From positions 13,006-77,005 of the forward strand of contig CACGDY010000002.1 in the NCBI GenBank assembly GCA_902571915.1: 64,000 nucleotides of DNA. The letters are read 5' to 3'. The translations under genes and the position numbers were made by a program. Below, piece after piece: positions 5,394 to 14,540 of the stretch (positions within the stretch are counted from its first letter, which is position 1; each line of letters starts with the position of its first letter). Below the pieces are notes generated by a model. It saw nothing but the letters and a program-made list of their open reading frames with translations, did no database searches and was not told the DNA's origin. This DNA comes from an uncultured Pelagibacteraceae bacterium (GTDB lineage Bacteria > Pseudomonadota > Alphaproteobacteria > Pelagibacterales > Pelagibacteraceae).

Positions 5394-8168
5394 TTACTTT
5401 AGGTTGCCCCAGTTATTTCCTATATTTAAATCAACTGTTAAAGGTATCGAGAAAGAATGTAGATCACTTTTTGATACACTGCTCATCTCATCTATAATTA
5501 TTTTGCTGATTCCTTCAATGTCATCTTTATGTGTTTCAAAAATTAATTCATCATGTATTTGTAAAAGCATCTTTGTTTTAAAATTTCTTTTTAAATTTAA
5601 TTTTTTACTAAGCCTTATCATCGCTAATCTCATTATTTCAGATGCTGATCCTTGAATAGGTGCATTAATAGCAGCTCTCTCTTGAAAATTCCTGACATTA
5701 TAATTTTTGTCATTAATATTTATAAAATGTGATCTTCTTCCAAAAATATTATTTACGTATCCACTTTTTCTACAAAATTTAATTGTTTTCTCCATATAAC
5801 TTTTTATTTCTGGAAATCTTAAAAAATAAGAATTTAAAAAATTTTTAGCCTCATGATTAGAAACATTGATTTGTTTCGCCAACCCATATTCAGAAATCCC
5901 ATATATTATACCAAAATTAATTGCCTTTGCTTTTCTTCTTTGATCGGAAGTAATTTTATCAATTTCAATATCAAATATTTGGCTTGCAGTTAATGAATGG
6001 ATATCTTCATTGTTTTTAAAAGCTTTTTTAAGTTCTTTTACATCAGCTAAGTCTGCTAATATTCTCATCTCTATTTGATTATAATCTGCAGAAAGTAAAA
6101 CATAATCTTTTTTTGCTATAAAAGCTTTTCTGATATCTTTTCCATCATCAGATTTTATAGGAATATTTTGTAAATTTGGTTCACTTGAGGCTAATCTACC
6201 AGTTGATGTTGCTGCCAACAAAAATGATGTATGAACCCTTTTTGTTTTTTGGTTTATATGTTCAGGAAGTGAGTCTGAATAAGTATTTTTTAACTTAGAT
6301 AATTGTCTCCAGTCTAAAATTAGTTGTGGAAATTTATGACCTTTATAAGCGAGATCTTCTAGTACAGATGCATTAGTTGCAAATCCTCCTTTTTTGGTTT
6401 TTTTTAATCCTCCTATCTTTAAATCATTATAAATTATTTCCCCTAATTGTTTAGTCGAAGCAATATTAAATTCTTTTTTTGATAACTTGAAAACTTCTTT
6501 TTGTATTTTTTCGATTTTTTTTTGAAATTTTGAAGATAAAATCTTTAGAAAATCTTTATCAATTTTAATTCCTTCGATTTCCATGTGTGCTAAAATTTCA
6601 ATCATAGGTTTTTCAAATGTTTCATAAATATTTATCAATTTTTGTTCCTTCAGAAATTTATAAAATTTTTTATAAAGTCTCAAAGTAATGTCAGCATCCT
6701 CAGCAGCATAATTTTTTGCTTTTTCGATATCTACCTCGCTAAAATTTATTTCTTTTTTTCCAGTTCCCACTAATTCTTTAAATGAAATGGTTTTATGACT
6801 TAAGTGAATTTTCGAAAGCGTATCCATATTATGTCTGTTTTTTCCTGCATCTAACACATAAGACATCAACATAGTATCTTCCATGGATGAAATATTTATT
6901 CCTTGATAAAATAATATAATAAAATCAAATTTAATATTCTGTCCGATTTTTTTTACACTGGTATCCTCAAGTAAAGGTTTCAATTGATTTAAAACCCTTT
7001 TTTTATCTAAAGATTTTTTCGATTTGTGTCCGACAGGTATATAACAAGCTTTTCCAATTTTAGTACTTAAAGAAATACCAACTAATTCTGCAGTGTGAGG
7101 GTCAAGTGAGTTGGTTTCTGTATCAAAAGCTACTTCGCCTGCCTCCTCAGCTTCCTTAATCCAAGAGTCGATTTCTAAATAATCTTGAATTAAGTGATAT
7201 TCTTTTTTACTAATCTTCGAAGTGTTAAAGTTATCTTCTAATACTTTTTTATTTCCCTCAAAATTCGGTTCTCCGTAAGCTGAAATAGCTGAACTTAACA
7301 ATCTGTTAAATTCCATTTCTCTTAAGAAAGTATAAAGTCTATTTTTGTCAATCTCTTTCAACTTAAACTCCTTTAAATCCATTTTAATTGGTACATTTTT
7401 TTCTAAAGTTACCAATTTTTTACTGATAATTGCTTTATCTTTATTCTCAATTAGGGACTCTCTTCTTTTATTTTGTTTAATTTCTCTAGCTGAGTTCAGA
7501 AGTTTTTCTAAAGAACCATATTTATTAATTAATTCAGATGCTGTTTTTATTCCTATACCTGGGACACCTGGTACATTATCGCTACTATCACCAGCTAAAG
7601 CTTGAACATCTACTACTTTTGACGGCTGTACACCAAATTTTTTAAGCACATCTTCTTCATTAATAAATTTATTCTTCATAGGATCATAAATTCGAATATC
7701 TTTTTTATATAGTTGCATTAAATCTTTATCAGATGAAACAATTGTTACCTTGCCACCTTTTTTTAAAATTTTATCAGCATATGTAGCTATTAAATCATCT
7801 GCTTCAAAATTTATTAGCTCAACTGATGGCAAATTAAAAGCAAGAACAGATTTTCTTATATACTCAAATTGAGGAGCTAAATCATCGGGTGCTTCGGAAC
7901 GATTGGCTTTATAATCTTTGTAAATTTCATTTCTAAATGTTTTCCTAGCTGAATCAAAGATCACTGCAAAATGAGATGGTTTTTGCAGATTTTGATTTGA
8001 TTTTGAGTCCTCTAAAAGTTTAAAGAGCATGCTACAAAATCCACTAACTGCACCAGTGGGTAATCCATCGCTTTTACGTGATAAAGGCGGGAGAGCATAG
8101 TAAGCCCGGAAAATATAGCCAGAACCATCTATGAGATAATAATGCTCTTTTTTTTTAATTTTATTCAT
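5394..8168 (-). CDS. polA: DNA polymerase I
   Basis: 5'-3' exonuclease (LIDGSGYIFRAYY, EADD), 3'-5' exonuclease (DTET), polymerase motifs (ADYNQIEMR, KAINFGIIYG, QIHDEL). Confidence 0.98.
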   Translation of the reverse strand: MNKIKKKEHYYLIDGSGYIFRAYYALPPLSRKSDGLPTGAVSGFCSMLFKLLEDSKSNQNLQKPSHFAVIFDSARKTFRNEIYKDYKANRSEAPDDLAPQFEYIRKSVLAFNLPSVELINFEADDLIATYADKILKKGGKVTIVSSDKDLMQLYKKDIRIYDPMKNKFINEEDVLKKFGVQPSKVVDVQALAGDSSDNVPGVPGIGIKTASELINKYGSLEKLLNSAREIKQNKRRESLIENKDKAIISKKLVTLEKNVPIKMDLKEFKLKEIDKNRLYTFLREMEFNRLLSSAISAYGEPNFEGNKKVLEDNFNTSKISKKEYHLIQDYLEIDSWIKEAEEAGEVAFDTETNSLDPHTAELVGISLSTKIGKACYIPVGHKSKKSLDKKRVLNQLKPLLEDTSVKKIGQNIKFDFIILFYQGINISSMEDTMLMSYVLDAGKNRHNMDTLSKIHLSHKTISFKELVGTGKKEINFSEVDIEKAKNYAAEDADITLRLYKKFYKFLKEQKLINIYETFEKPMIEILAHMEIEGIKIDKDFLKILSSKFQKKIEKIQKEVFKLSKKEFNIASTKQLGEIIYNDLKIGGLKKTKKGGFATNASVLEDLAYKGHKFPQLILDWRQLSKLKNTYSDSLPEHINQKTKRVHTSFLLAATSTGRLASSEPNLQNIPIKSDDGKDIRKAFIAKKDYVLLSADYNQIEMRILADLADVKELKKAFKNNEDIHSLTASQIFDIEIDKITSDQRRKAKAINFGIIYGISEYGLAKQINVSNHEAKNFLNSYFLRFPEIKSYMEKTIKFCRKSGYVNNIFGRRSHFININDKNYNVRNFQERAAINAPIQGSASEIMRLAMIRLSKKLNLKRNFKTKMLLQIHDELIFETHKDDIEGISKIIIDEMSSVSKSDLHSFSIPLTVDLNIGNNWGNLK

Positions 8169-8277
8169 TCAGAATATTTAATGTTATATTAGACATTATC
8201 TCTATATTAAAATTATATTATAAATTTTATATAATTTATTTCTAGATTATCAGGAAAAAAGTTAGTAATATTTTTTT

Positions 8278-8829
8278 ATGGAATCAATAAGAACAATTAC
8301 TCAATCAAAGCTTGTGAAATTATCACTTATTGTATTTTTTGGATCGATAATTCTTGCTATATCTGCGAAAATTAAAATTCCATTCTATCCCGTTCCTATG
8401 ACCATGCAGACATTTATAGTGTTACTTTTAGGTATAAGTTTTGGTACTAAAATTGGTGTTGCGACTATAATTTTGTATTTACTTGAGGGAATAATAGGCT
8501 TACCGGTTTTTTCTAATTCTCCTGAAAGGGGTATTGGATTAGTTTATTTCACTGGACCTACAATGGGTTATTTGCTTGGATTTATTTCTGCTTGTTATTT
8601 GACATCCTCGATTAGACAAAATGAGAATTACTTGAGAATTTTTATGAAATTAATTTTGTCAGTATCAACTATATATATTTTAGGAGTTTTGTGGTTGGGT
8701 TATATTATTGGGTGGGATAAACCTTTGTTTGAATTAGGTGTAGCACCTTTTTTATTAGCTGAAATTTTTAAAATTACTTTATTAACTTTATTATTTAGAA
8801 GATTAATCAAATTAAGAAAATTTATTTAG
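8278..8829 (+). CDS. bioY: Biotin transporter BioY (solitary S component)
   Basis: IPFYPVPMTMQTF, YLLEGIIGLPVF, GPTMGYLLGF; hydrophobic, 183 aa. Confidence 0.92.
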   Translation: MESIRTITQSKLVKLSLIVFFGSIILAISAKIKIPFYPVPMTMQTFIVLLLGISFGTKIGVATIILYLLEGIIGLPVFSNSPERGIGLVYFTGPTMGYLLGFISACYLTSSIRQNENYLRIFMKLILSVSTIYILGVLWLGYIIGWDKPLFELGVAPFLLAEIFKITLLTLLFRRLIKLRKFI

Positions 8830-9385
8830 GAGACCTCTTTGAAAGAATTCTTTGCAAAGTTCTTCTATGCATCTTAAGTCTTCTAGCAGTTTCTGAGACA
8901 TTTCTGTTACAAAGTTCGAACACTCTATGAATATGTTCCCATTTTACTCTATCTGCTGACATTGGGTTTTCTGGCGGTACAGCTTTTTTTGTTGGATCAG
9001 CTAAAAGAGCTTTTTCAACATCATCTGCGTCCGCAGGCTTTGCTAGATAATCAATTGCCCCCTCTTTAATAGCTGCGACTGCTGTTGGAATATTACCATA
9101 ACCTGTTAGCATTATTATTCTACTAGATGAGTTAGATGATTGGATTTGTTTTACAACTTCTAAGCCGTTACCATCACTTAGTCTCAAGTCTACCACTGCA
9201 AAACCGGGTTTTTTGGACTTAACAGTATCAATACCTTTTTGTACACCCTCAGCTTGAATAACTTCAAATCCCTTCTTTTCCATAGCTCTAGCTAAACGCT
9301 CTCTAAAAGGATTATCATCATCCACAATTAATAGTGATTTGTTCTCAAAATCAGCTAAATTTTGCAAAGTTGCATCTGTTTTCAT
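8822..9385 (-). CDS. regA: Redox response regulator RegA/PrrA/ActR
   Basis: LTGYGNIPTAVAA and the highly conserved PMSADRVKWEHIHRVFELCNRNVSETARRLKMHRRTLQRIL tail. Confidence 0.95.
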   Translation of the reverse strand: MKTDATLQNLADFENKSLLIVDDDNPFRERLARAMEKKGFEVIQAEGVQKGIDTVKSKKPGFAVVDLRLSDGNGLEVVKQIQSSNSSSRIIMLTGYGNIPTAVAAIKEGAIDYLAKPADADDVEKALLADPTKKAVPPENPMSADRVKWEHIHRVFELCNRNVSETARRLKMHRRTLQRILSKRSPK

Positions 9386-9392
9386 ATATTGA

Positions 9393-9420
9393 ATATGGCT
9401 ACTTTTTATTAAATTTCAAG
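9393..9420 (-). promoter_or_regulatory. Putative regA promoter (RpoH-like or sigma70), predicting a leaderless transcript
   Basis: CTTGAA-16 nt-CCATAT, ending 7 nt before the regA ATG. Confidence 0.4.
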
Positions 9421-9528
9421 GGTCATTATTTTCTTTACATTAAATAAGTATTGAATTAACTGCTGGATATTAAAGATTATTTTTTATAAATAACTTTTTT
9501 TTGTTAAATTTTTTTGGGGGGCGTTTAG

Positions 9529-10707
9529 ATGCTAAAATTTAAATCAGTTGATGCATTAGTAAATCAACTGAAACCAACAGAGCCAGTTTATTGTATTAGA
9601 AGAAATTCTATAAATTTAGCTTCTAAATTTTTTCAAAATAAGTTTCCTGGTAAAATTCTATATGCTGTAAAAACTAATCCTCATCCATTGGTATTAAAGA
9701 CAATTGTAGAAAGTGGAATTAATGACTTTGATATTGCTTCAATTAATGAAGTAGAGGCAATAAAGAAAGTAAGCCCAGATGCAAAATGCTCTTATATGCA
9801 TACTGTAAAAAGTAAAGAAAGTATAATCGAGGCTTACTTCAAATATAACATTAAGACTTTTTCAATAGATACTAAAGACGAATTGATAAAAATTCTAAAC
9901 AGCACAAATCAAGCTAAAGACTTGGAATTATTTGTAAGGGTAGCAGTTTCTAATGAACATGCAGAAATAGATTTATCTAAAAAATTTGGCGCACAAACTT
10001 CTGAAGCTATAGGACTTTACAGACTAACAAAACAATATGCCAAAAAAATAGGATTAAGTTTTCATGTTGGATCACAATGTATGCATCCAATATCTTACTC
10101 GAAAGGTATTAATGAAATTAAATATATAATTAAAAAAACAAAGATAGTTCCAGATATTATAAATATAGGTGGAGGATTTCCAACGATCTATCCTGATTTG
10201 GTTCCTAAATCATTACATTCTTATTTTGATGAAATTAAAAATTCTTTAATTAATTTAAAATTAAAAAAACTTCCTGAAATAATATGTGAGCCTGGCCGAG
10301 CAATTGTTGCTGAAAGTGGTTCTACAATAGTTAGGGTTAATTTGAGAAAAAAACAAAAGCTTTACATTAATGATGGAACATATGGAACTTTATTTGATGC
10401 AGGGGTACCTAATATAATTTATCCATCAAGAATAATTACAAATGGACGAATAGTGTCAAAAAAATTAACCTCATTCGATTTTTATGGACCAACATGTGAT
10501 AGTATGGATTATATGAAAGGTCCTTTTATTTTACCCAATAATATTAAAGAGGGTGATTATATTGAATTAGGTCAATTAGGTGCATATGGTCTTACTTTTA
10601 GGACTCAATTTAATGGCTATTACTCCGATGAAATTTATGAGGTTGAGGACAGACCAATAATGACTATGTATGATAAGAATTCAGACAAAGCTACTCTAGT
10701 TGCTTAA
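9529..10707 (+). CDS. Fold-III PLP-dependent basic amino-acid decarboxylase (ornithine decarboxylase family; probably arginine-specific)
   Basis: YAVKTN PLP lysine, FHVGSQ, IGGGF, EPGR, NDGTYG, GPTCDSMD, GAYG. Operon context with aguA/aguB argues for agmatine as the product. Confidence 0.85.
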   Translation: MLKFKSVDALVNQLKPTEPVYCIRRNSINLASKFFQNKFPGKILYAVKTNPHPLVLKTIVESGINDFDIASINEVEAIKKVSPDAKCSYMHTVKSKESIIEAYFKYNIKTFSIDTKDELIKILNSTNQAKDLELFVRVAVSNEHAEIDLSKKFGAQTSEAIGLYRLTKQYAKKIGLSFHVGSQCMHPISYSKGINEIKYIIKKTKIVPDIINIGGGFPTIYPDLVPKSLHSYFDEIKNSLINLKLKKLPEIICEPGRAIVAESGSTIVRVNLRKKQKLYINDGTYGTLFDAGVPNIIYPSRIITNGRIVSKKLTSFDFYGPTCDSMDYMKGPFILPNNIKEGDYIELGQLGAYGLTFRTQFNGYYSDEIYEVEDRPIMTMYDKNSDKATLVA

Positions 10708-11747
10708 TGTCAGAAAATAAAAATCTTGGTCACAACAGTAAAAAAGATTTCTTAAAAAAGCCTGTAGAGCATATTGATATTACATCTTTTGACTCTAGAA
10801 AAATTATTTCTTCCATGGAAAAAATGTCTTTTGTTTCAAGAGAGACGGCAAATGCAGCAAATATTTATAATGAAATGTTAAAAGATAAAGAATGTACAAT
10901 TTTTTTAACATTAGCAGGATCTACTTCAGCGGCAGGATGTATGCATATTTACAGAGATATGGTCAAATACAACATGGTAGATGCAATTGTTGCAACTGGA
11001 GCGTCTATAATAGATATGGATTTTTTTGAGGCACTTGGATTTAAACATTATCAAGGTTCACAGTATCAAAATGATAATGAGCTCAGAAAAAATTACATAG
11101 ACAGGATTTATGACACTTACATCGATGAGGAGGAGCTTCAATTGTGTGATAAAACAATTGGAGAAATAGCTGATAAACTAAAACCAAAAACTTATACATC
11201 AAGAGAGTTTATTAGAGAAATTGGTAAATATTTAAAGTCAAATGCTAAAAAGAAGGGATCTTTGATTGAAACAGCATATGACAATAATGTTCCAATATTC
11301 TGTCCAGCATTTACCGACTCAAGCGCAGGTTTTGGATTAGTGATGCACCAAGAGAAAAATCCAAAAAATCATATAACTATGGACTCAATAAGGGAATTTA
11401 GAGAATTAACAGAGATAAAAATTAAATCTAAAGGATCAGGGTTATTTATGATTGGTGGCGGTGTTCCTAAAAATTTTATACAAGATACAGTAATTTGCGC
11501 TGAGCTTTTAGGAAAAGAGGTTGATATGCACAAATATGCCATTCAAATCACAGTTGCTGACTCGAGAGATGGCGCATGTAGTAGCTCAACACTAAAAGAG
11601 GCAAGCTCGTGGGGTAAGGTTGATATAAACAAAGAGCAAATGGTATTTGCTGAAGCTACTAGTGTTCTTCCATTAATTGCAAGTAATGCTTATCATACTG
11701 GAGAATGGAAAAATAGAGAAAGAAAAAACTTCTCCAAAATATTTTGA
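10707..11747 (+). CDS. Deoxyhypusine synthase-like aminobutyltransferase (homospermidine or bis-guanidino-homospermidine synthase type)
   Basis: IDRIYD, FCPAFTDSSAG, IGGGVPKNF, DGACSSSTLKEASSWGKV (catalytic Lys motif), FAEAT. TAATG overlap with the decarboxylase gene. Confidence 0.88.
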   Translation: MSENKNLGHNSKKDFLKKPVEHIDITSFDSRKIISSMEKMSFVSRETANAANIYNEMLKDKECTIFLTLAGSTSAAGCMHIYRDMVKYNMVDAIVATGASIIDMDFFEALGFKHYQGSQYQNDNELRKNYIDRIYDTYIDEEELQLCDKTIGEIADKLKPKTYTSREFIREIGKYLKSNAKKKGSLIETAYDNNVPIFCPAFTDSSAGFGLVMHQEKNPKNHITMDSIREFRELTEIKIKSKGSGLFMIGGGVPKNFIQDTVICAELLGKEVDMHKYAIQITVADSRDGACSSSTLKEASSWGKVDINKEQMVFAEATSVLPLIASNAYHTGEWKNRERKNFSKIF

Positions 11748-11750
11748 TTA

Positions 11751-12632
11751 ATGGTCAAAAAAATTAAAATTGGAATTATTCAAAGTAAAATCTCAAGTAA
11801 TATTAAAGAAAATTTAGACTTAGCGATTAAAAATATAAAAAAAGCTGCATCAAAAAAAGCTAAAATAGTTTGTTTGCCAGAACTATTTTTATCAAATTAT
11901 TTTTGTCAAACAGAAAACCACTCAAATTTTAGACTAGCTGAAAAGATACCAGGAAAAACAACAAAAATATTTTGTGATTTAGCAAAAGAATTAAAAATAG
12001 TTTTAATTATTTCTTTATTTGAAAAAAAAACACATGGTTTTTATCATAATACGAGTGTTGTTATAAATGATATAGGTAAAATATTGTCAAAGTATAGAAA
12101 AATGCATATTCCTGATGACCCTGGGTATTATGAAAAATTTTATTTTACTCCTGGGGATTTAGGATTTAAATCTATCAAAACAAAGTTTGGTAAAATTGGA
12201 CCTTTAATATGTTGGGATCAATGGTTTCCTGAAGCTGCTAGACTAACAGCACTAAAAGGTGCACAAATAATTTTTTATCCTACAGCTATTGGATGGCATC
12301 CAAAAGAAAAAAGGAAATTTGGTAAATCTCAATTAGATTCATGGATTACTATGCAAAAATCTCATGCTATCGCAAATGGAACCTATGTAGTTGCCATAAA
12401 CAGAGTAGGAACTGAAAAGAAAGGTAAAAAGAAAATAGAATTCTGGGGAAATTCTATGATAATTGATCCAAGTGGCCAAATAATTGGAAAACTTAGTAAT
12501 AATAAAGAGCAAATTTTAATTCGGGAAGTTGATTACAAAAAAATAGACAAAGTTAGACAACATTGGCCCTTTTTACGAGATCGAAGAATTGATTTTTATA
12601 AAGGTATATTAAAAAATCCTGAAGATGAGTGA
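11751..12632 (+). CDS. aguB: N-carbamoylputrescine amidohydrolase (nitrilase superfamily)
   Basis: E-K-C triad (LPELF, YRKMHIPDDPGYYEKFYF, ICWDQWFPE), YPTAIGW, WPFLRDRR. Confidence 0.88.
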   Translation: MVKKIKIGIIQSKISSNIKENLDLAIKNIKKAASKKAKIVCLPELFLSNYFCQTENHSNFRLAEKIPGKTTKIFCDLAKELKIVLIISLFEKKTHGFYHNTSVVINDIGKILSKYRKMHIPDDPGYYEKFYFTPGDLGFKSIKTKFGKIGPLICWDQWFPEAARLTALKGAQIIFYPTAIGWHPKEKRKFGKSQLDSWITMQKSHAIANGTYVVAINRVGTEKKGKKKIEFWGNSMIIDPSGQIIGKLSNNKEQILIREVDYKKIDKVRQHWPFLRDRRIDFYKGILKNPEDE

Positions 12633-13677
12633 AAAACTTAGTGGATTTAGAATGCCTGGTGAATGGGAGAAACAAAAATCTGTCTGGATTGCGTGGCCTT
12701 ATAACAAAAACGATTGGCCTGGTTTATATAAATTCATTCCTGACGTAATTTTGGAAATTATATATAAAATATCAAAACATCAAAAGGTTAATTTGATTAT
12801 TAACAATAAAATCGAGAGCATCAAAAAAATCTTCAAATCAAGCAAAATTAAGAATGTTAGTTTCCATAAGATAAAAACTGATAGAATATGGTTGAGAGAC
12901 TCAGGTCCAATTTTTTTAATTAACAAAAAGTATAAAAAAAAAATTATATTAAACTTCATATTTAATGGCTGGGCAAAATATAAAAATTACGAAAATGACA
13001 ATAAAATTAATGATAAACTAAGTAAAATCATCAAATTAAAAAAAATTAATCCAGCTATCAAAAAAAATGGGAAATCAAGAAAAGTAATAATGGAAGGTGG
13101 GGCGTTTGACGTAAATGGTACAGGAACAATTTTATTAACAGAAGAATGTTTATTAAGCAAAATTCAGGAGAGAAATAAAAAGTTTAATAAGAAAGACTAT
13201 GAGGGAATATTTAATAAATATTTAAATATAAAAAATTTTATATGGTTAAAAAAAGGTATTATTGGTGACGATACACATGGCCATGTTGATGATATTTCCA
13301 GATTTGTATCAAGAAATACAATTATGACTGCAATCGAAAAAAATAAAAATGAAAAAAATTACAAAAATCTTAATGAAAATTTAAAGATATTAAAGAAATC
13401 TAGAGATGAAAGGGGTAAAAAATTTAAAATCATAAAAGTACCTATGCCCTCACCCATATTTATAGATAAAACGAGAGTTCCAGCTAGTTATATGAACTTT
13501 TATATTTGTAATAAAAAAGTTTTGCTTCCCATCTTTAAGGTAAAAGAGGATAAAATTGCAATTAAAATTTTCAAAAATTATTTTAAAAATAGAAAAGTCG
13601 AAACAGTTGACTGCAGTAAACTAATATGGGGTTTTGGCGCAATACATTGTATGACACAACAAGAGCCCATTATTTAG
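12625..13677 (+). CDS. aguA: Agmatine deiminase family protein
   Basis: RMPGEWE, WLRDSGP, FNGW, EGG, DDTHGHVDD, ASYMNF, GAIHCMTQQ (catalytic Cys). Confidence 0.9.
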   Translation: MSEKLSGFRMPGEWEKQKSVWIAWPYNKNDWPGLYKFIPDVILEIIYKISKHQKVNLIINNKIESIKKIFKSSKIKNVSFHKIKTDRIWLRDSGPIFLINKKYKKKIILNFIFNGWAKYKNYENDNKINDKLSKIIKLKKINPAIKKNGKSRKVIMEGGAFDVNGTGTILLTEECLLSKIQERNKKFNKKDYEGIFNKYLNIKNFIWLKKGIIGDDTHGHVDDISRFVSRNTIMTAIEKNKNEKNYKNLNENLKILKKSRDERGKKFKIIKVPMPSPIFIDKTRVPASYMNFYICNKKVLLPIFKVKEDKIAIKIFKNYFKNRKVETVDCSKLIWGFGAIHCMTQQEPII

Positions 13678-14226
13678 TCAGGCTGCTTTTAAAGTACCTA
13701 GCAATAACCTAAAAGGTATCAACATTACTAAGGCAACAAAAATTTTAACTGCCAAGTCACCTAGAGATAACGTTACCCATGGTATTCCTGTTCCATAAAA
13801 AGATATGGAAAAAAATATAAAAGTATCAACGGTAGATCCAATTAAAGAGGATATTAGAGGAGCAACGAACCATTTTTTTTGTCTTAATTGATCAAATATC
13901 TGAACATCTAAAAGTTGAGCAATAATAAATGCTGTTCCTGATCCGATTGCTATTCGTATTGAGATTAGATCAGTGAAATTTGTGGAAAATATTAATGTAA
14001 ATAAAATTCCTATCGAAAAACCAATGTAGACAATTTTTCTAGCAATCAACTTTCCAAAAGATCTATTAGCTAAATCGGTTATTAAAAATGCGATCGGGTA
14101 ACTAAAAGCTCCGTATGTTAATATCTCCTCCAGTCCATAATATTTAATAGGAAATTGAACCAAATAATTAGAAGCTAGTACAACAAGCCCCATTAAAAAT
14201 GAAAGTGTCAAAAATGTTTTATTCAT
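13678..14226 (-). CDS. yhhQ: Queuosine precursor transporter (VUT/YhhQ family)
   Basis: SNYLVQ, TYGAFSYPIAFLITDL, RIAIGSGTAF, QLLDVQIF, DTFIFF. Its ATG overlaps the rpmB stop (TAATG). Confidence 0.85.
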   Translation of the reverse strand: MNKTFLTLSFLMGLVVLASNYLVQFPIKYYGLEEILTYGAFSYPIAFLITDLANRSFGKLIARKIVYIGFSIGILFTLIFSTNFTDLISIRIAIGSGTAFIIAQLLDVQIFDQLRQKKWFVAPLISSLIGSTVDTFIFFSISFYGTGIPWVTLSLGDLAVKIFVALVMLIPFRLLLGTLKAA

Positions 14227-14540
14227 TATGCAGTTTTAGATTGAATAGGTTTTTTTTGAAATGGAGATTTAATTAATAAGCTTTTTTTTAGTTTTTTTAA
14301 TCTAGGAGATAAATTTTTATTTTTTACAGATTTCAAAAATTCATCAAAACTGCCTTTTTTATCTACTGATCTAACCCCTGCATTACTAACTGTTAATTTT
14401 AAGCTTCTTTTTAAAAGTTCACTTGTAAATTTTACTTTTTTCAAATTAGGTAAAAATCTTCTTTTTGTCTTATTGTTAGCATGACTAACGTTATGACCTT
14501 TCATAGGATTTTTTCCAGTTAATTCACATTTTTTTGTCAT
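14226..14540 (-). CDS. rpmB: 50S ribosomal protein L28
   Basis: KCELTGK...[19 protein letters not shown]. Start moved to the ATG at 14540. Confidence 0.96.

What the first reader, a model, noticed from the sequence alone, without database searches (positions are those of the whole stretch)
9529..13677. Four-gene polyamine operon: possible urea-free arginine-to-homospermidine route using a DHS-like synthase plus deiminase/carbamoylase
Seen: four tightly packed genes (TAATG overlap, 3-nt gap, 8-nt overlap), all with intact catalytic motifs: fold-III decarboxylase, deoxyhypusine-synthase-like enzyme, AguB, AguA. A true ornithine decarboxylase makes putrescine directly, so aguA/aguB would be redundant; the operon makes more sense if the first enzyme yields agmatine. 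Established, from memory and to be verified: the Pelagibacter ODC homologue was reported to be an arginine decarboxylase; bacteria lack eIF5A; cyanobacterial and Thermus DHS-like enzymes make homospermidine via guanidinated intermediates (aminobutylagmatine or bis-guanidino-homospermidine) that an agmatinase then hydrolyses. Inference: here a deiminase plus carbamoylase replaces the agmatinase, and may act on the guanidinated homospermidine precursors rather than only on agmatine. That would release ammonium instead of urea, which suits a nitrogen-limited oligotroph. I do not know of this variant having been described.
Basis: partly seen in the sequence, partly recalled or inferred. Interest (0 to 1): 0.78.

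Follow-up and report, generated by a model that had tools for sequence, protein, structure and literature searches.

The report
SAR11 urea-free homospermidine operon, already described

Summary
Four co-oriented genes sit at exactly the stated coordinates, with the stated TAATG overlap, 3-nt gap and 8-nt overlap, and all have intact catalytic motifs.

Li et al. (J Biol Chem, Sept 2026, PMC13625781) showed that bacterial DHS-like SpeY enzymes couple two agmatines to N1,N9-bis(guanidino)homospermidine (G44G). They also showed that SpeY-associated AguA homologues deiminate G44G to bis(carbamoyl)homospermidine (C44C). One system they tested is the same four-gene cluster of the freshwater SAR11 relative Ca. 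Fonsibacter ubiquis. The SAR11 "ODC" homologues were shown to be arginine decarboxylases in 2023 (PMC9992855). Only the last step, AguB on C44C, is still untested anywhere.

New here:
- The window SpeY passes NCBIfam's G44G-synthase model and carries the Thermus-type substrate-site residues.
- The window AguA falls in a clade found only in SpeY-bearing genomes.
- Among 300 Pelagibacteraceae genomes, the aguB-aguA cassette (111) and a single agmatinase-like gene (175) never co-occur.
- The two modules replace each other exactly between the speY stop and the next gene, at least three times among close relatives.
- Urease was found only in agmatinase-type genomes, which look like one lineage.

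Verdict: correct, well reasoned, already known. The population-level cassette swap is a modest addition.

The parts
9386..9528 (+). AT-rich intergenic region upstream of the operon, the presumed promoter and 5' UTR. It separates the operon from a divergently transcribed ActR/PrrA/RegA-type response regulator gene (8822-9385, minus strand).
   Evidence: Sequence read. No Rfam family matched. Promoter-like hits are no more frequent than in shuffled sequence. The regulator was identified. No regulatory link has been shown.
9529..10707 (+). Alanine-racemase-fold, PLP-dependent decarboxylase (392 aa). It is an ODC homologue predicted to be an arginine decarboxylase that produces agmatine.
   Evidence: Pfam PF02784 and PF00278. 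PLP-lysine and active-site motifs are present. It is 64% identical to the 396-aa first gene of the same cluster in G020, which is probably Fonsibacter. The Pelagibacter and Fonsibacter homologues were assayed as arginine-only decarboxylases (PMC9992855). It is the only AR-fold decarboxylase besides a lysA-like one in near-complete relatives.
10707..11747 (+). SpeY (346 aa), a deoxyhypusine-synthase homologue. [quoted passage not shown]
   Evidence: NCBIfam NF002699 scores 576.6 bits against a cut-off of 500. Pfam DS scores 330.7 bits. Lys304 aligns to the catalytic Lys329 of human DHS, and Phe209 and Cys291 replace DHS Asp243 and Asp316, as in Thermus CdmS (Phe204, Leu286). It is 79% identical to the G020 SpeY.
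11751..12632 (+). AguB-like carbon-nitrogen hydrolase (293 aa). Predicted function: N1,N9-bis(carbamoyl)homospermidine (C44C) amidohydrolase, releasing 2 NH3 and 2 CO2 to give homospermidine. This step is inferred.
   Evidence: Pfam CN_hydrolase scores 218.7 bits. TIGR03381 (aguB) scores 299.9 bits, below its 410.25 cut-off. The Glu/Lys/Cys triad is present. It overlaps aguA by 8 nt. It always travels with aguA as one cassette.
12625..13677 (+). AguA-like iminohydrolase (350 aa). Predicted function: G44G ('diagmatine') iminohydrolase, producing C44C and 2 NH3.
   Evidence: Pfam PAD_porph scores 360.2 bits. TIGR03380 scores 248.3 bits against 381.8, and NF010070 scores 264.8 against 483, so both curated cut-offs are missed. 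The catalytic Cys, His and Asp motifs are present. It falls in a 100/100-supported clade made up only of SpeY-bearing genomes. It is 55% identical to the G020 homologue. The Fonsibacter AIH produced C44C when co-expressed with SpeY.
11748..13677 (+). The exchangeable cassette (aguB-aguA, about 1.93 kb). In other Pelagibacteraceae the same slot, between the speY stop and the convergent queuosine-precursor transporter gene, holds a single agmatinase-like gene of about 0.89 kb.
   Evidence: Searches show the agmatinase-like gene at the same position. One search gives exact breakpoints with flanks 93-96% identical. Searches show 111 versus 175 genomes and none with both. One search shows at least 3 switches on the speY tree.

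Best explanation
The operon encodes an agmatine-dependent, putrescine-independent and urea-free route from arginine to homospermidine. (1) The ODC-fold enzyme decarboxylates L-arginine to agmatine. (2) SpeY oxidatively couples two agmatines through an enzyme-imine on Lys304, giving N1,N9-bis(guanidino)homospermidine (G44G) and NH3. (3) The AguA homologue deiminates both guanidino groups, giving N1,N9-bis(carbamoyl)homospermidine (C44C) and 2 NH3. (4) The AguB homologue hydrolyses both carbamoyl groups, giving homospermidine, 2 CO2 and 2 NH3. Steps 1 to 3 have been shown experimentally for orthologues or close homologues. Step 4 is inferred. In sister SAR11 genomes a single ureohydrolase does the work of steps 3 and 4 and releases 2 urea.
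For: Literature:
- ADC activity only, with none on ornithine or lysine, for the Ca. P. ubique and Ca. F. ubiquis homologues (PMC9992855).
- Fonsibacter SpeY accumulates G44G in E. coli lacking speB. It makes no homospermidine without a guanidino-removing enzyme (PMC13625781).
- Fonsibacter SpeY plus its AIH gives C44C.
- The R. wittichii SpeY-associated AIH is G44G-specific.

- SpeY passes the NCBIfam equivalog for G44G synthase, 576.6 against 500 bits.
- SpeY has Phe209 and Cys291 where DHS has the two spermidine-binding aspartates, as in Thermus CdmS.
- The same gene order occurs in G020, a 1,160,202-bp closed genome with a 396-aa ADC, probably Fonsibacter. Identity to the window is 64/79/65/55% for ADC/SpeY/AguB/AguA.
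- AguA and AguB both fall below the canonical aguA/aguB equivalog cut-offs.
- AguA sits in a strongly supported clade found only in SpeY-bearing genomes.
- The aguB-aguA cassette and an agmatinase-like gene are mutually exclusive in 300 genomes: 111, 175, none with both.
- The two occupy the same slot with exact breakpoints on near-identical ADC-speY backgrounds, and have switched at least 3 times. This argues that the two modules do the same job.
- No arginase-fold gene and no urease were found in the own genome (57% complete) or in its 92%-complete near-twin G238.
Against: - No enzyme of this window, or of any marine aguBA-type SAR11, has been assayed. The nearest tested AguA is only about 55% identical, and its activity on agmatine was not measured.
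- AguB activity on C44C has not been shown for any organism.
- Cultured agmatinase-type SAR11 strains contain little or no homospermidine and mainly spermidine (PMC8437039), so the pathway may carry little flux.
- These genomes also carry an aminopropyltransferase and no separate ODC. The cell therefore needs a putrescine source, which hints that AguA/AguB may also act on agmatine.
- I could not confirm by name that G020 is Fonsibacter.
Confidence: 0.82

Rival explanations
1. Classical route, as interpreted in 2023. ADC makes agmatine, AguA and AguB convert agmatine to putrescine through N-carbamoylputrescine, and SpeY condenses two putrescines (or putrescine plus spermidine) to homospermidine.
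For: AguA and AguB are homologous to the canonical enzymes. This reading was given for the Fonsibacter cluster in PMC9992855. P. aeruginosa AguA acts on both agmatine and G44G, so substrate overlap exists in the family.
Against: Every SpeY tested, including the Fonsibacter one, made G44G. None made homospermidine in E. coli lacking speB, which still has putrescine from ODC. The window SpeY passes the G44G-synthase model and has the CdmS-type pocket. AguA and AguB miss the canonical equivalog cut-offs, and AguA clusters with SpeY-associated homologues. The only kinetically tested SpeY-associated AIH has no activity on agmatine.
Confidence: 0.06
2. Multifunctional module. The single AguA/AguB pair mainly, or equally, converts agmatine to putrescine. 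The agmatine would be endogenous or imported, and the putrescine would feed the AdoMetDC-aminopropyltransferase fusion or serve as a nitrogen source. G44G processing would be only one of several roles.
For: These genomes have an aminopropyltransferase, no second ODC/ADC-type decarboxylase apart from a lysA-like one and one PAD_porph gene. Cultured SAR11 make spermidine de novo and take up agmatine. Pelagibacter aminopropyltransferases were classed with the spermine/thermospermine synthases, which mostly did not aminopropylate agmatine. Putrescine therefore has to come from somewhere.
Against: SpeY-associated ureohydrolases and the one SpeY-associated iminohydrolase that were characterised are inactive on agmatine. 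A module that consumed agmatine would compete with SpeY for its substrate, as PMC13625781 argues. Putrescine can be imported through PotABCD. The cassette is fused translationally into the ADC-speY operon.
Confidence: 0.12

Closest known systems
Ca. Fonsibacter ubiquis ADC-speY-NCPAH-AIH cluster and the SpeY/diagmatine (G44G) pathway with diagmatine iminohydrolase (Li et al., J Biol Chem 2026, PMC13625781; cluster first drawn in PNAS 2023, PMC9992855)
   Same: Same order (Pelagibacterales), same four genes in the same order, and tight packing. The ODC-fold ADC sits immediately upstream of speY. The route is agmatine to G44G to C44C to homospermidine.
   Different: This is a marine Pelagibacter-genus genome. 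Its proteins are only 64/79/65/55% identical to the probable Fonsibacter ones. It additionally carries an aminopropyltransferase that G020 lacks. Nothing from the marine form has been assayed.
SpeY plus diagmatine ureohydrolase (DUH) pathway: Thermus thermophilus CdmS/SpeB (PMC10981699), Anabaena, and Ca. P. ubique SAG AAA797-I19, HTCC1062 and HTCC7211
   Same: The same ADC and SpeY steps and the same G44G intermediate. In SAR11 it sits at the same chromosomal locus with the same flanking genes.
   Different: One arginase-fold enzyme removes both guanidino groups as 2 urea. Here two enzymes remove them as 4 NH3 and 2 CO2.
Canonical agmatine deiminase / N-carbamoylputrescine amidase route to putrescine (Pseudomonas aeruginosa AguA/AguB, plants, PBCV-1)
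   Same: The same two protein folds and the same chemistry on a guanidino and then a carbamoyl group.
   Different: The window proteins miss the curated aguA and aguB cut-offs. AguA lies in a clade found only in SpeY-bearing genomes. The predicted substrate is the symmetrical bis-guanidino triamine, not agmatine.
Bacterial homospermidine synthase HSS (putrescine-dependent)
   Same: The same end product.
   Different: An unrelated fold and a putrescine substrate. It is reported to be mutually exclusive with SpeY. I did not search for it here.

Membership tests
[quoted passage not shown] | Scores above the curated cut-off of the NCBIfam equivalog NF002699 | tested here: met
   576.6 bits against a cut-off of 500. 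True DHS models score 304 bits or less, below their own cut-offs.
[quoted passage not shown] | Catalytic lysine retained, and the two spermidine-binding aspartates of eukaryotic DHS (Asp243, Asp316) replaced by non-acidic residues as in Thermus CdmS | tested here: met
   Lys304 aligns to Lys329, Phe209 to Asp243, Cys291 to Asp316 and Glu298 to Glu323. CdmS has Phe204 and Leu286.
[quoted passage not shown] | Forms G44G from two agmatines and makes no homospermidine from putrescine | not testable with these tools
   Shown for the Fonsibacter, R. wittichii and other SpeY proteins. The window protein is 79% identical to the probable Fonsibacter one.
ODC-fold arginine decarboxylase (neofunctionalised AR-fold ODC) | AR-fold PLP decarboxylase with intact active site, encoded immediately upstream of speY in an alphaproteobacterium | tested here: met
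   PMC13625781 states that such ODC homologues in SpeY-encoding species are likely ADCs.
ODC-fold arginine decarboxylase (neofunctionalised AR-fold ODC) | Decarboxylates arginine but not ornithine or lysine | not testable with these tools
   Measured for WP_075506504 (Pelagibacter, 394 aa) and WP_099339815 (Fonsibacter, 396 aa). I could not retrieve those sequences, so identity to the tested Pelagibacter enzyme is unknown. A 394-aa allele class in relatives is 76-79% identical to the window's.
Diagmatine (G44G) iminohydrolase, DIH | PAD_porph fold with the catalytic Cys, His and Asp | tested here: met
   360.2 bits. IHCMTQ, THGHVDD and WLRDSGP are present.
Diagmatine (G44G) iminohydrolase, DIH | Encoded with SpeY and ADC, in a genome without an agmatinase-type partner | tested here: met
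   Same operon. None of 300 family genomes has both modules. No arginase-fold gene in G238. The clade occurs only in SpeY-bearing genomes.
Diagmatine (G44G) iminohydrolase, DIH | Active on G44G and inactive on agmatine | not testable with these tools
   Shown only for the R. wittichii enzyme. Its sequence could not be retrieved for comparison.
Canonical agmatine deiminase AguA (TIGR03380 / NF010070) | Score above the curated cut-off | tested here: not met
   248.3 against 381.8, and 264.8 against 483. The closest solved structure is the uncharacterised 1xkn (288 bits). Characterised agmatine deiminases score about 165 bits.
Canonical N-carbamoylputrescine amidase AguB (TIGR03381) | Score above the curated cut-off | tested here: not met
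   299.9 against 410.25. The catalytic triad is intact.
C44C amidohydrolase (NCHAH), as proposed in PMC13625781 | Hydrolyses N1,N9-bis(carbamoyl)homospermidine to homospermidine | not testable with these tools
   Untested in any organism for lack of pure C44C. Supported here only by translational coupling to aguA and by the cassette being exchangeable with a one-gene ureohydrolase.

The most novel reading that the evidence does not exclude
In marine SAR11 the one-gene ureohydrolase module (4 N lost as urea per homospermidine) and the two-gene iminohydrolase/amidohydrolase module (the same 4 N recovered as ammonium) are alternative alleles of one locus. Homologous recombination at exact gene boundaries shuffles them, and selection on nitrogen economy maintains both. 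The extra 1 kb would be tolerated in an otherwise streamlined genome where nitrogen is limiting and no urease is present. The aguBA form, found in 44 of 177 sampled genomes of the window's genus but in none of the closed ones, would then be an unstudied physiological type of the ocean's most abundant bacterium.
Probability: 0.3. Interest if true: 0.55.

Novelty: already known. Interest (0 to 1): 0.27.

Why it matters
SAR11 is the most abundant bacterial group in the ocean, so its polyamine metabolism affects marine nitrogen and dissolved organic matter budgets. Per homospermidine the pathway consumes two arginines, which hold 8 N. With the ureohydrolase module and no urease, 4 of those N leave as urea. 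With the aguA/aguB module they return as ammonium. The pathway itself is now published, so this window adds no new biochemistry. It does show three things. The urea-free variant is common in uncultured marine Pelagibacter. It is an exact, recurrently exchanged allele of the urea-producing variant. All closed genomes sampled from the window's genus carry the other allele, so the physiology measured in HTCC1062 and HTCC7211 may not represent aguBA-type cells.

Tried and rejected
- Exact-sequence cluster look-up and the word-indexed homologue search with AguA, aimed at the tested proteins (WP_075506504, WP_099339815, R. wittichii AIH). Both returned only unnamed SAR11 metagenome proteins. Identity to those exact proteins could therefore not be computed.
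- Gene-neighbourhood look-ups for four non-SAR11 representatives of the AguA clade. The contigs were too short. They showed only that the aguB-aguA order is conserved elsewhere. The partial ORF upstream in L083 is not SpeY.
- Supplementary tables of PMC13625781 are not held.
- An Rfam scan of the operon and its leader found nothing above noise. The promoter and terminator scan was uninformative in this AT-rich DNA.
- Considered and rejected: SpeY as a true deoxyhypusine synthase. All DHS models score below their cut-offs, the substrate aspartates are replaced, and bacteria have no eIF5A.
- Considered and rejected: a role for SpeY in spermidine catabolism. Noell et al. proposed it and then disfavoured it.
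- Considered and downgraded: an N1-aminopropylagmatine branch served by AguA/AguB. Pelagibacter aminopropyltransferases were classed with the spermine/thermospermine synthases, which mostly did not aminopropylate agmatine.
- Urease occurring only in agmatinase-type genomes (21 of 175 against 0 of 111) is not treated as statistical support. The urease carriers look like one lineage.
- One PDB search was wasted on a too-strict E-value.


Full report
**1. What is there**

The junctions are a TAATG stop/start overlap, a 3-nt gap and an 8-nt ATGAGTGA overlap.

| Gene | Pfam | Catalytic motifs |
|---|---|---|
| ADC | alanine-racemase-fold PLP decarboxylase | YAVKTN (PLP lysine), GGGFP, EPGR, PTCDS |
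| SpeY | deoxyhypusine-synthase family, 330.7 bits | SWGK (Lys304) |
| AguB | carbon-nitrogen hydrolase, 218.7 bits | Glu/Lys/Cys triad |
| AguA | Porphyromonas-type deiminase, 360.2 bits | Cys/His/Asp motifs |

No terminator-like site interrupts the block and no Rfam family lies in or before it.

The DNA is about 29% G+C. The nearest relatives are single-cell and metagenome genomes labelled "uncultured Pelagibacteraceae". The window's own assembly is only 57% complete.

**2. What the literature already says**

- Kobayashi et al. 2024 (PMC10981699) showed that the Thermus DHS homologue couples two agmatines to a bis-guanidino homospermidine, which a ureohydrolase then converts to homospermidine.
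- Li et al. 2023 (PMC9992855) purified the ODC-fold proteins of Ca. P. ubique (394 aa) and Ca. Fonsibacter ubiquis (396 aa). Both decarboxylated arginine only. The paper drew the two SAR11 cluster types: ADC-SpeY-agmatinase in Pelagibacter, and ADC-SpeY-NCPAH-AIH in Fonsibacter.
- Li et al., J Biol Chem, September 2026 (PMC13625781) then showed three things:
  - All tested SpeY proteins, Fonsibacter's included, make G44G and need a guanidino-removing enzyme to give homospermidine.
  - Fonsibacter or R. wittichii SpeY plus the cognate AIH gives the new compound bis(carbamoyl)homospermidine (C44C).
  - The R. wittichii AIH is inactive on agmatine; the authors call it a "diagmatine iminohydrolase".
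- The same paper states that the final amidohydrolase step could not be tested for lack of pure C44C.

A search for "diagmatine" finds only that paper.

**3. Does this window belong to that system?**

[quoted passage not shown] All true DHS models score below their own cut-offs. Aligned to human DHS, it keeps the catalytic lysine (Lys304 to Lys329) and Glu298 (to Glu323). It has Phe209 and Cys291 where DHS has the spermidine-binding Asp243 and Asp316. Thermus CdmS shows the same pattern, with Phe204 and Leu286.
- *Comparison with G020.* This is a closed 1,160,202-bp genome of another genus in the family. It carries the same four genes in the same order, with a 396-aa ADC, the length reported for the Fonsibacter enzyme. 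Identities to the window are 64% (ADC), 79% (SpeY), 65% (AguB) and 55% (AguA).
- *AguA and AguB.* Both fall well below the curated cut-offs of the canonical equivalogs (248 against 382, and 300 against 410). The closest solved structures are uncharacterised structural-genomics entries (1xkn, 6mg6), not the characterised agmatine deiminases or NCPAH.
- *Survey of Alphaproteobacteria.* In a sample of 400 genomes, SpeY passes its cut-off in 19 and PAD_porph proteins occur in 117.
- *AguA tree.* A maximum-likelihood tree of 42 of these deiminases puts the window protein in a 100/100-supported clade whose five members all come from SpeY-bearing genomes. A second 100/100 clade holds four more SpeY-bearing genomes and one without. 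The SpeY label needs 3 changes on the tree against 9.2 for shuffled labels. Relatedness inflates such clustering. The clade nevertheless spans two different families.

**4. A natural swap experiment**

- *Alternative gene in the same slot.* Seven of the 80 speY loci fetched lack aguB-aguA. They carry one agmatinase-family gene (TIGR01230, about 203 bits) in the same slot, with the same flanking genes: queuosine-precursor transporter, L28, pyrD and lysS.
- *Exact breakpoints.* Pairs of genomes of opposite type are 93-96% identical for 8 kb up to the speY stop codon. They then differ completely for 0.89 kb against 1.93 kb, and are again about 95% identical for 5 kb.
- *Repeated switching.* On a speY DNA tree, well-supported branches force at least three switches of module type.
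- *Mutual exclusion.* Among 300 Pelagibacteraceae genomes at least 80% complete, 111 have the aguA type, 175 have the agmatinase type, none has both and 14 have neither. Four genera are mixed.
- *Interpretation.* The two modules are interchangeable on near-identical ADC-SpeY backgrounds. SpeY-associated ureohydrolases are G44G-specific. This is good comparative evidence that AguA plus AguB together do the same job on the same substrate, including the untested AguB step.
The data refine that: it is one of two alternative cassettes, not an addition.

**5. The nitrogen argument**

By the established stoichiometry of these enzyme classes, two arginines (8 N) give homospermidine (3 N) plus NH3 from SpeY. 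The remaining 4 N leave either as 2 urea or as 4 NH3.

- Neither urease nor an arginase-fold gene was found in the own genome.
- Neither was found in G238, a 92%-complete genome whose speY-aguB-aguA is about 100% identical to the window's.
- True urease occurs in 21 of 300 family genomes. All 21 are agmatinase-type, and none of the 111 aguA-type genomes has one. The carriers look like one lineage, so this is only consistent with the idea, not a test of it.
- Against a simple adaptive story: 154 of 175 agmatinase-type genomes have no urease either.
- Noell et al. suggested that urea build-up may explain agmatine toxicity in cultured SAR11.

**6. Open points**

- Cultured SAR11, which are agmatinase-type, contain mostly spermidine and little homospermidine.
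- The window's genome and its close relatives carry an aminopropyltransferase. They have only one ODC/ADC-type decarboxylase apart from a lysA-like one and a single deiminase.
- Pelagibacter aminopropyltransferases were classed with the spermine/thermospermine synthases, which mostly did not aminopropylate agmatine. The putrescine source for spermidine is therefore unclear. It could be import, or some activity of AguA/AguB on agmatine. That keeps a multifunctional reading alive, at about 0.12.

**7. Verdict**

The system is already known and was experimentally characterised in the same bacterial order. Interest is therefore low for the pathway itself. The exact, recurrent and mutually exclusive cassette exchange within marine SAR11 is a modest addition, as is the lack of an aguBA-type genome among the closed genomes sampled from the window's genus.

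No claim here rests specifically on the genomes flagged as unpublished (G050, G151). Each only contributes one count to the tallies.

Noticed in passing
window 8001-10750 against 10750-14250 (compared with L082, which is G238:C3): The window is about 100% identical to its nearest genome from the start of speY onward. Upstream, including the ADC gene, the response regulator and bioY, identity is only 60-80%. A recombination breakpoint therefore lies near the ADC|speY junction. ADC alleles fall into classes (about 77% and about 93% identical to the window's) that do not track the speY tree.
   Followed up: partly
PDB 1xkn_A and 6mg6_A: The closest solved structures to the AguA and AguB homologues are uncharacterised structural-genomics entries: 'putative peptidyl-arginine deiminase' (288 bits) and 'carbon-nitrogen hydrolase' (283 bits). 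Both score well above the characterised agmatine deiminases (about 165 bits) and plant NCPAH (231 bits). They may be unrecognised structures of the non-canonical, G44G-type or aminopropylagmatine-type enzymes.
   Followed up: no
P0176, P0191, P0206, P0243 (618-657 aa) and P0157, P0209, P0248 (497-535 aa): Several representatives have the AguA-like domain at the C-terminus of a protein about 270-300 residues longer. That is the size expected of an AguB-AguA fusion. I did not examine the N-terminal parts.
   Followed up: no
Genus g1 genomes: All 47 or so genomes of the window's genus listed with one or two contigs (probably isolates) are agmatinase-type. None of the 44 aguA-type genomes is closed. 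The aguBA-type marine Pelagibacter therefore appears to be missing from cultured, closed-genome strains. Contig counts may be rounded by the tool.
   Followed up: partly
G020 (genus g11): The probable Fonsibacter genome has no spermidine-synthase-family gene and no arginase-fold gene. Marine aguA-type genomes do have an aminopropyltransferase. The freshwater lineage may rely on homospermidine alone.
   Followed up: partly
G115:C1:61466-62284 and G139:C3:259442-260260: Two aguA-type Pelagibacter genomes carry an arginase-family gene scoring about 318 bits on PF00491, much higher than the speY-linked agmatinase-like gene (about 203 bits). It did not match the speY-linked gene at E<=1e-40 and is probably a true arginase. 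It would be another source of urea.
   Followed up: no
window 8822-9385 (minus strand): An ActR/PrrA/RegA-family redox response regulator (307 bits, cut-off 250) is transcribed divergently from the operon, 143 nt away. The same neighbour is present in L019 and L069. No regulatory link was tested.
   Followed up: no
PDB 7cmc_A alignment: The archaeal 'probable deoxyhypusine synthase' 7cmc keeps Asp at the human Asp243 position but has Leu at the Asp316 position, as Thermus CdmS does. This bears on the question raised in PMC13625781 of whether some archaeal DHS enzymes are agmatine-dependent.
   Followed up: no
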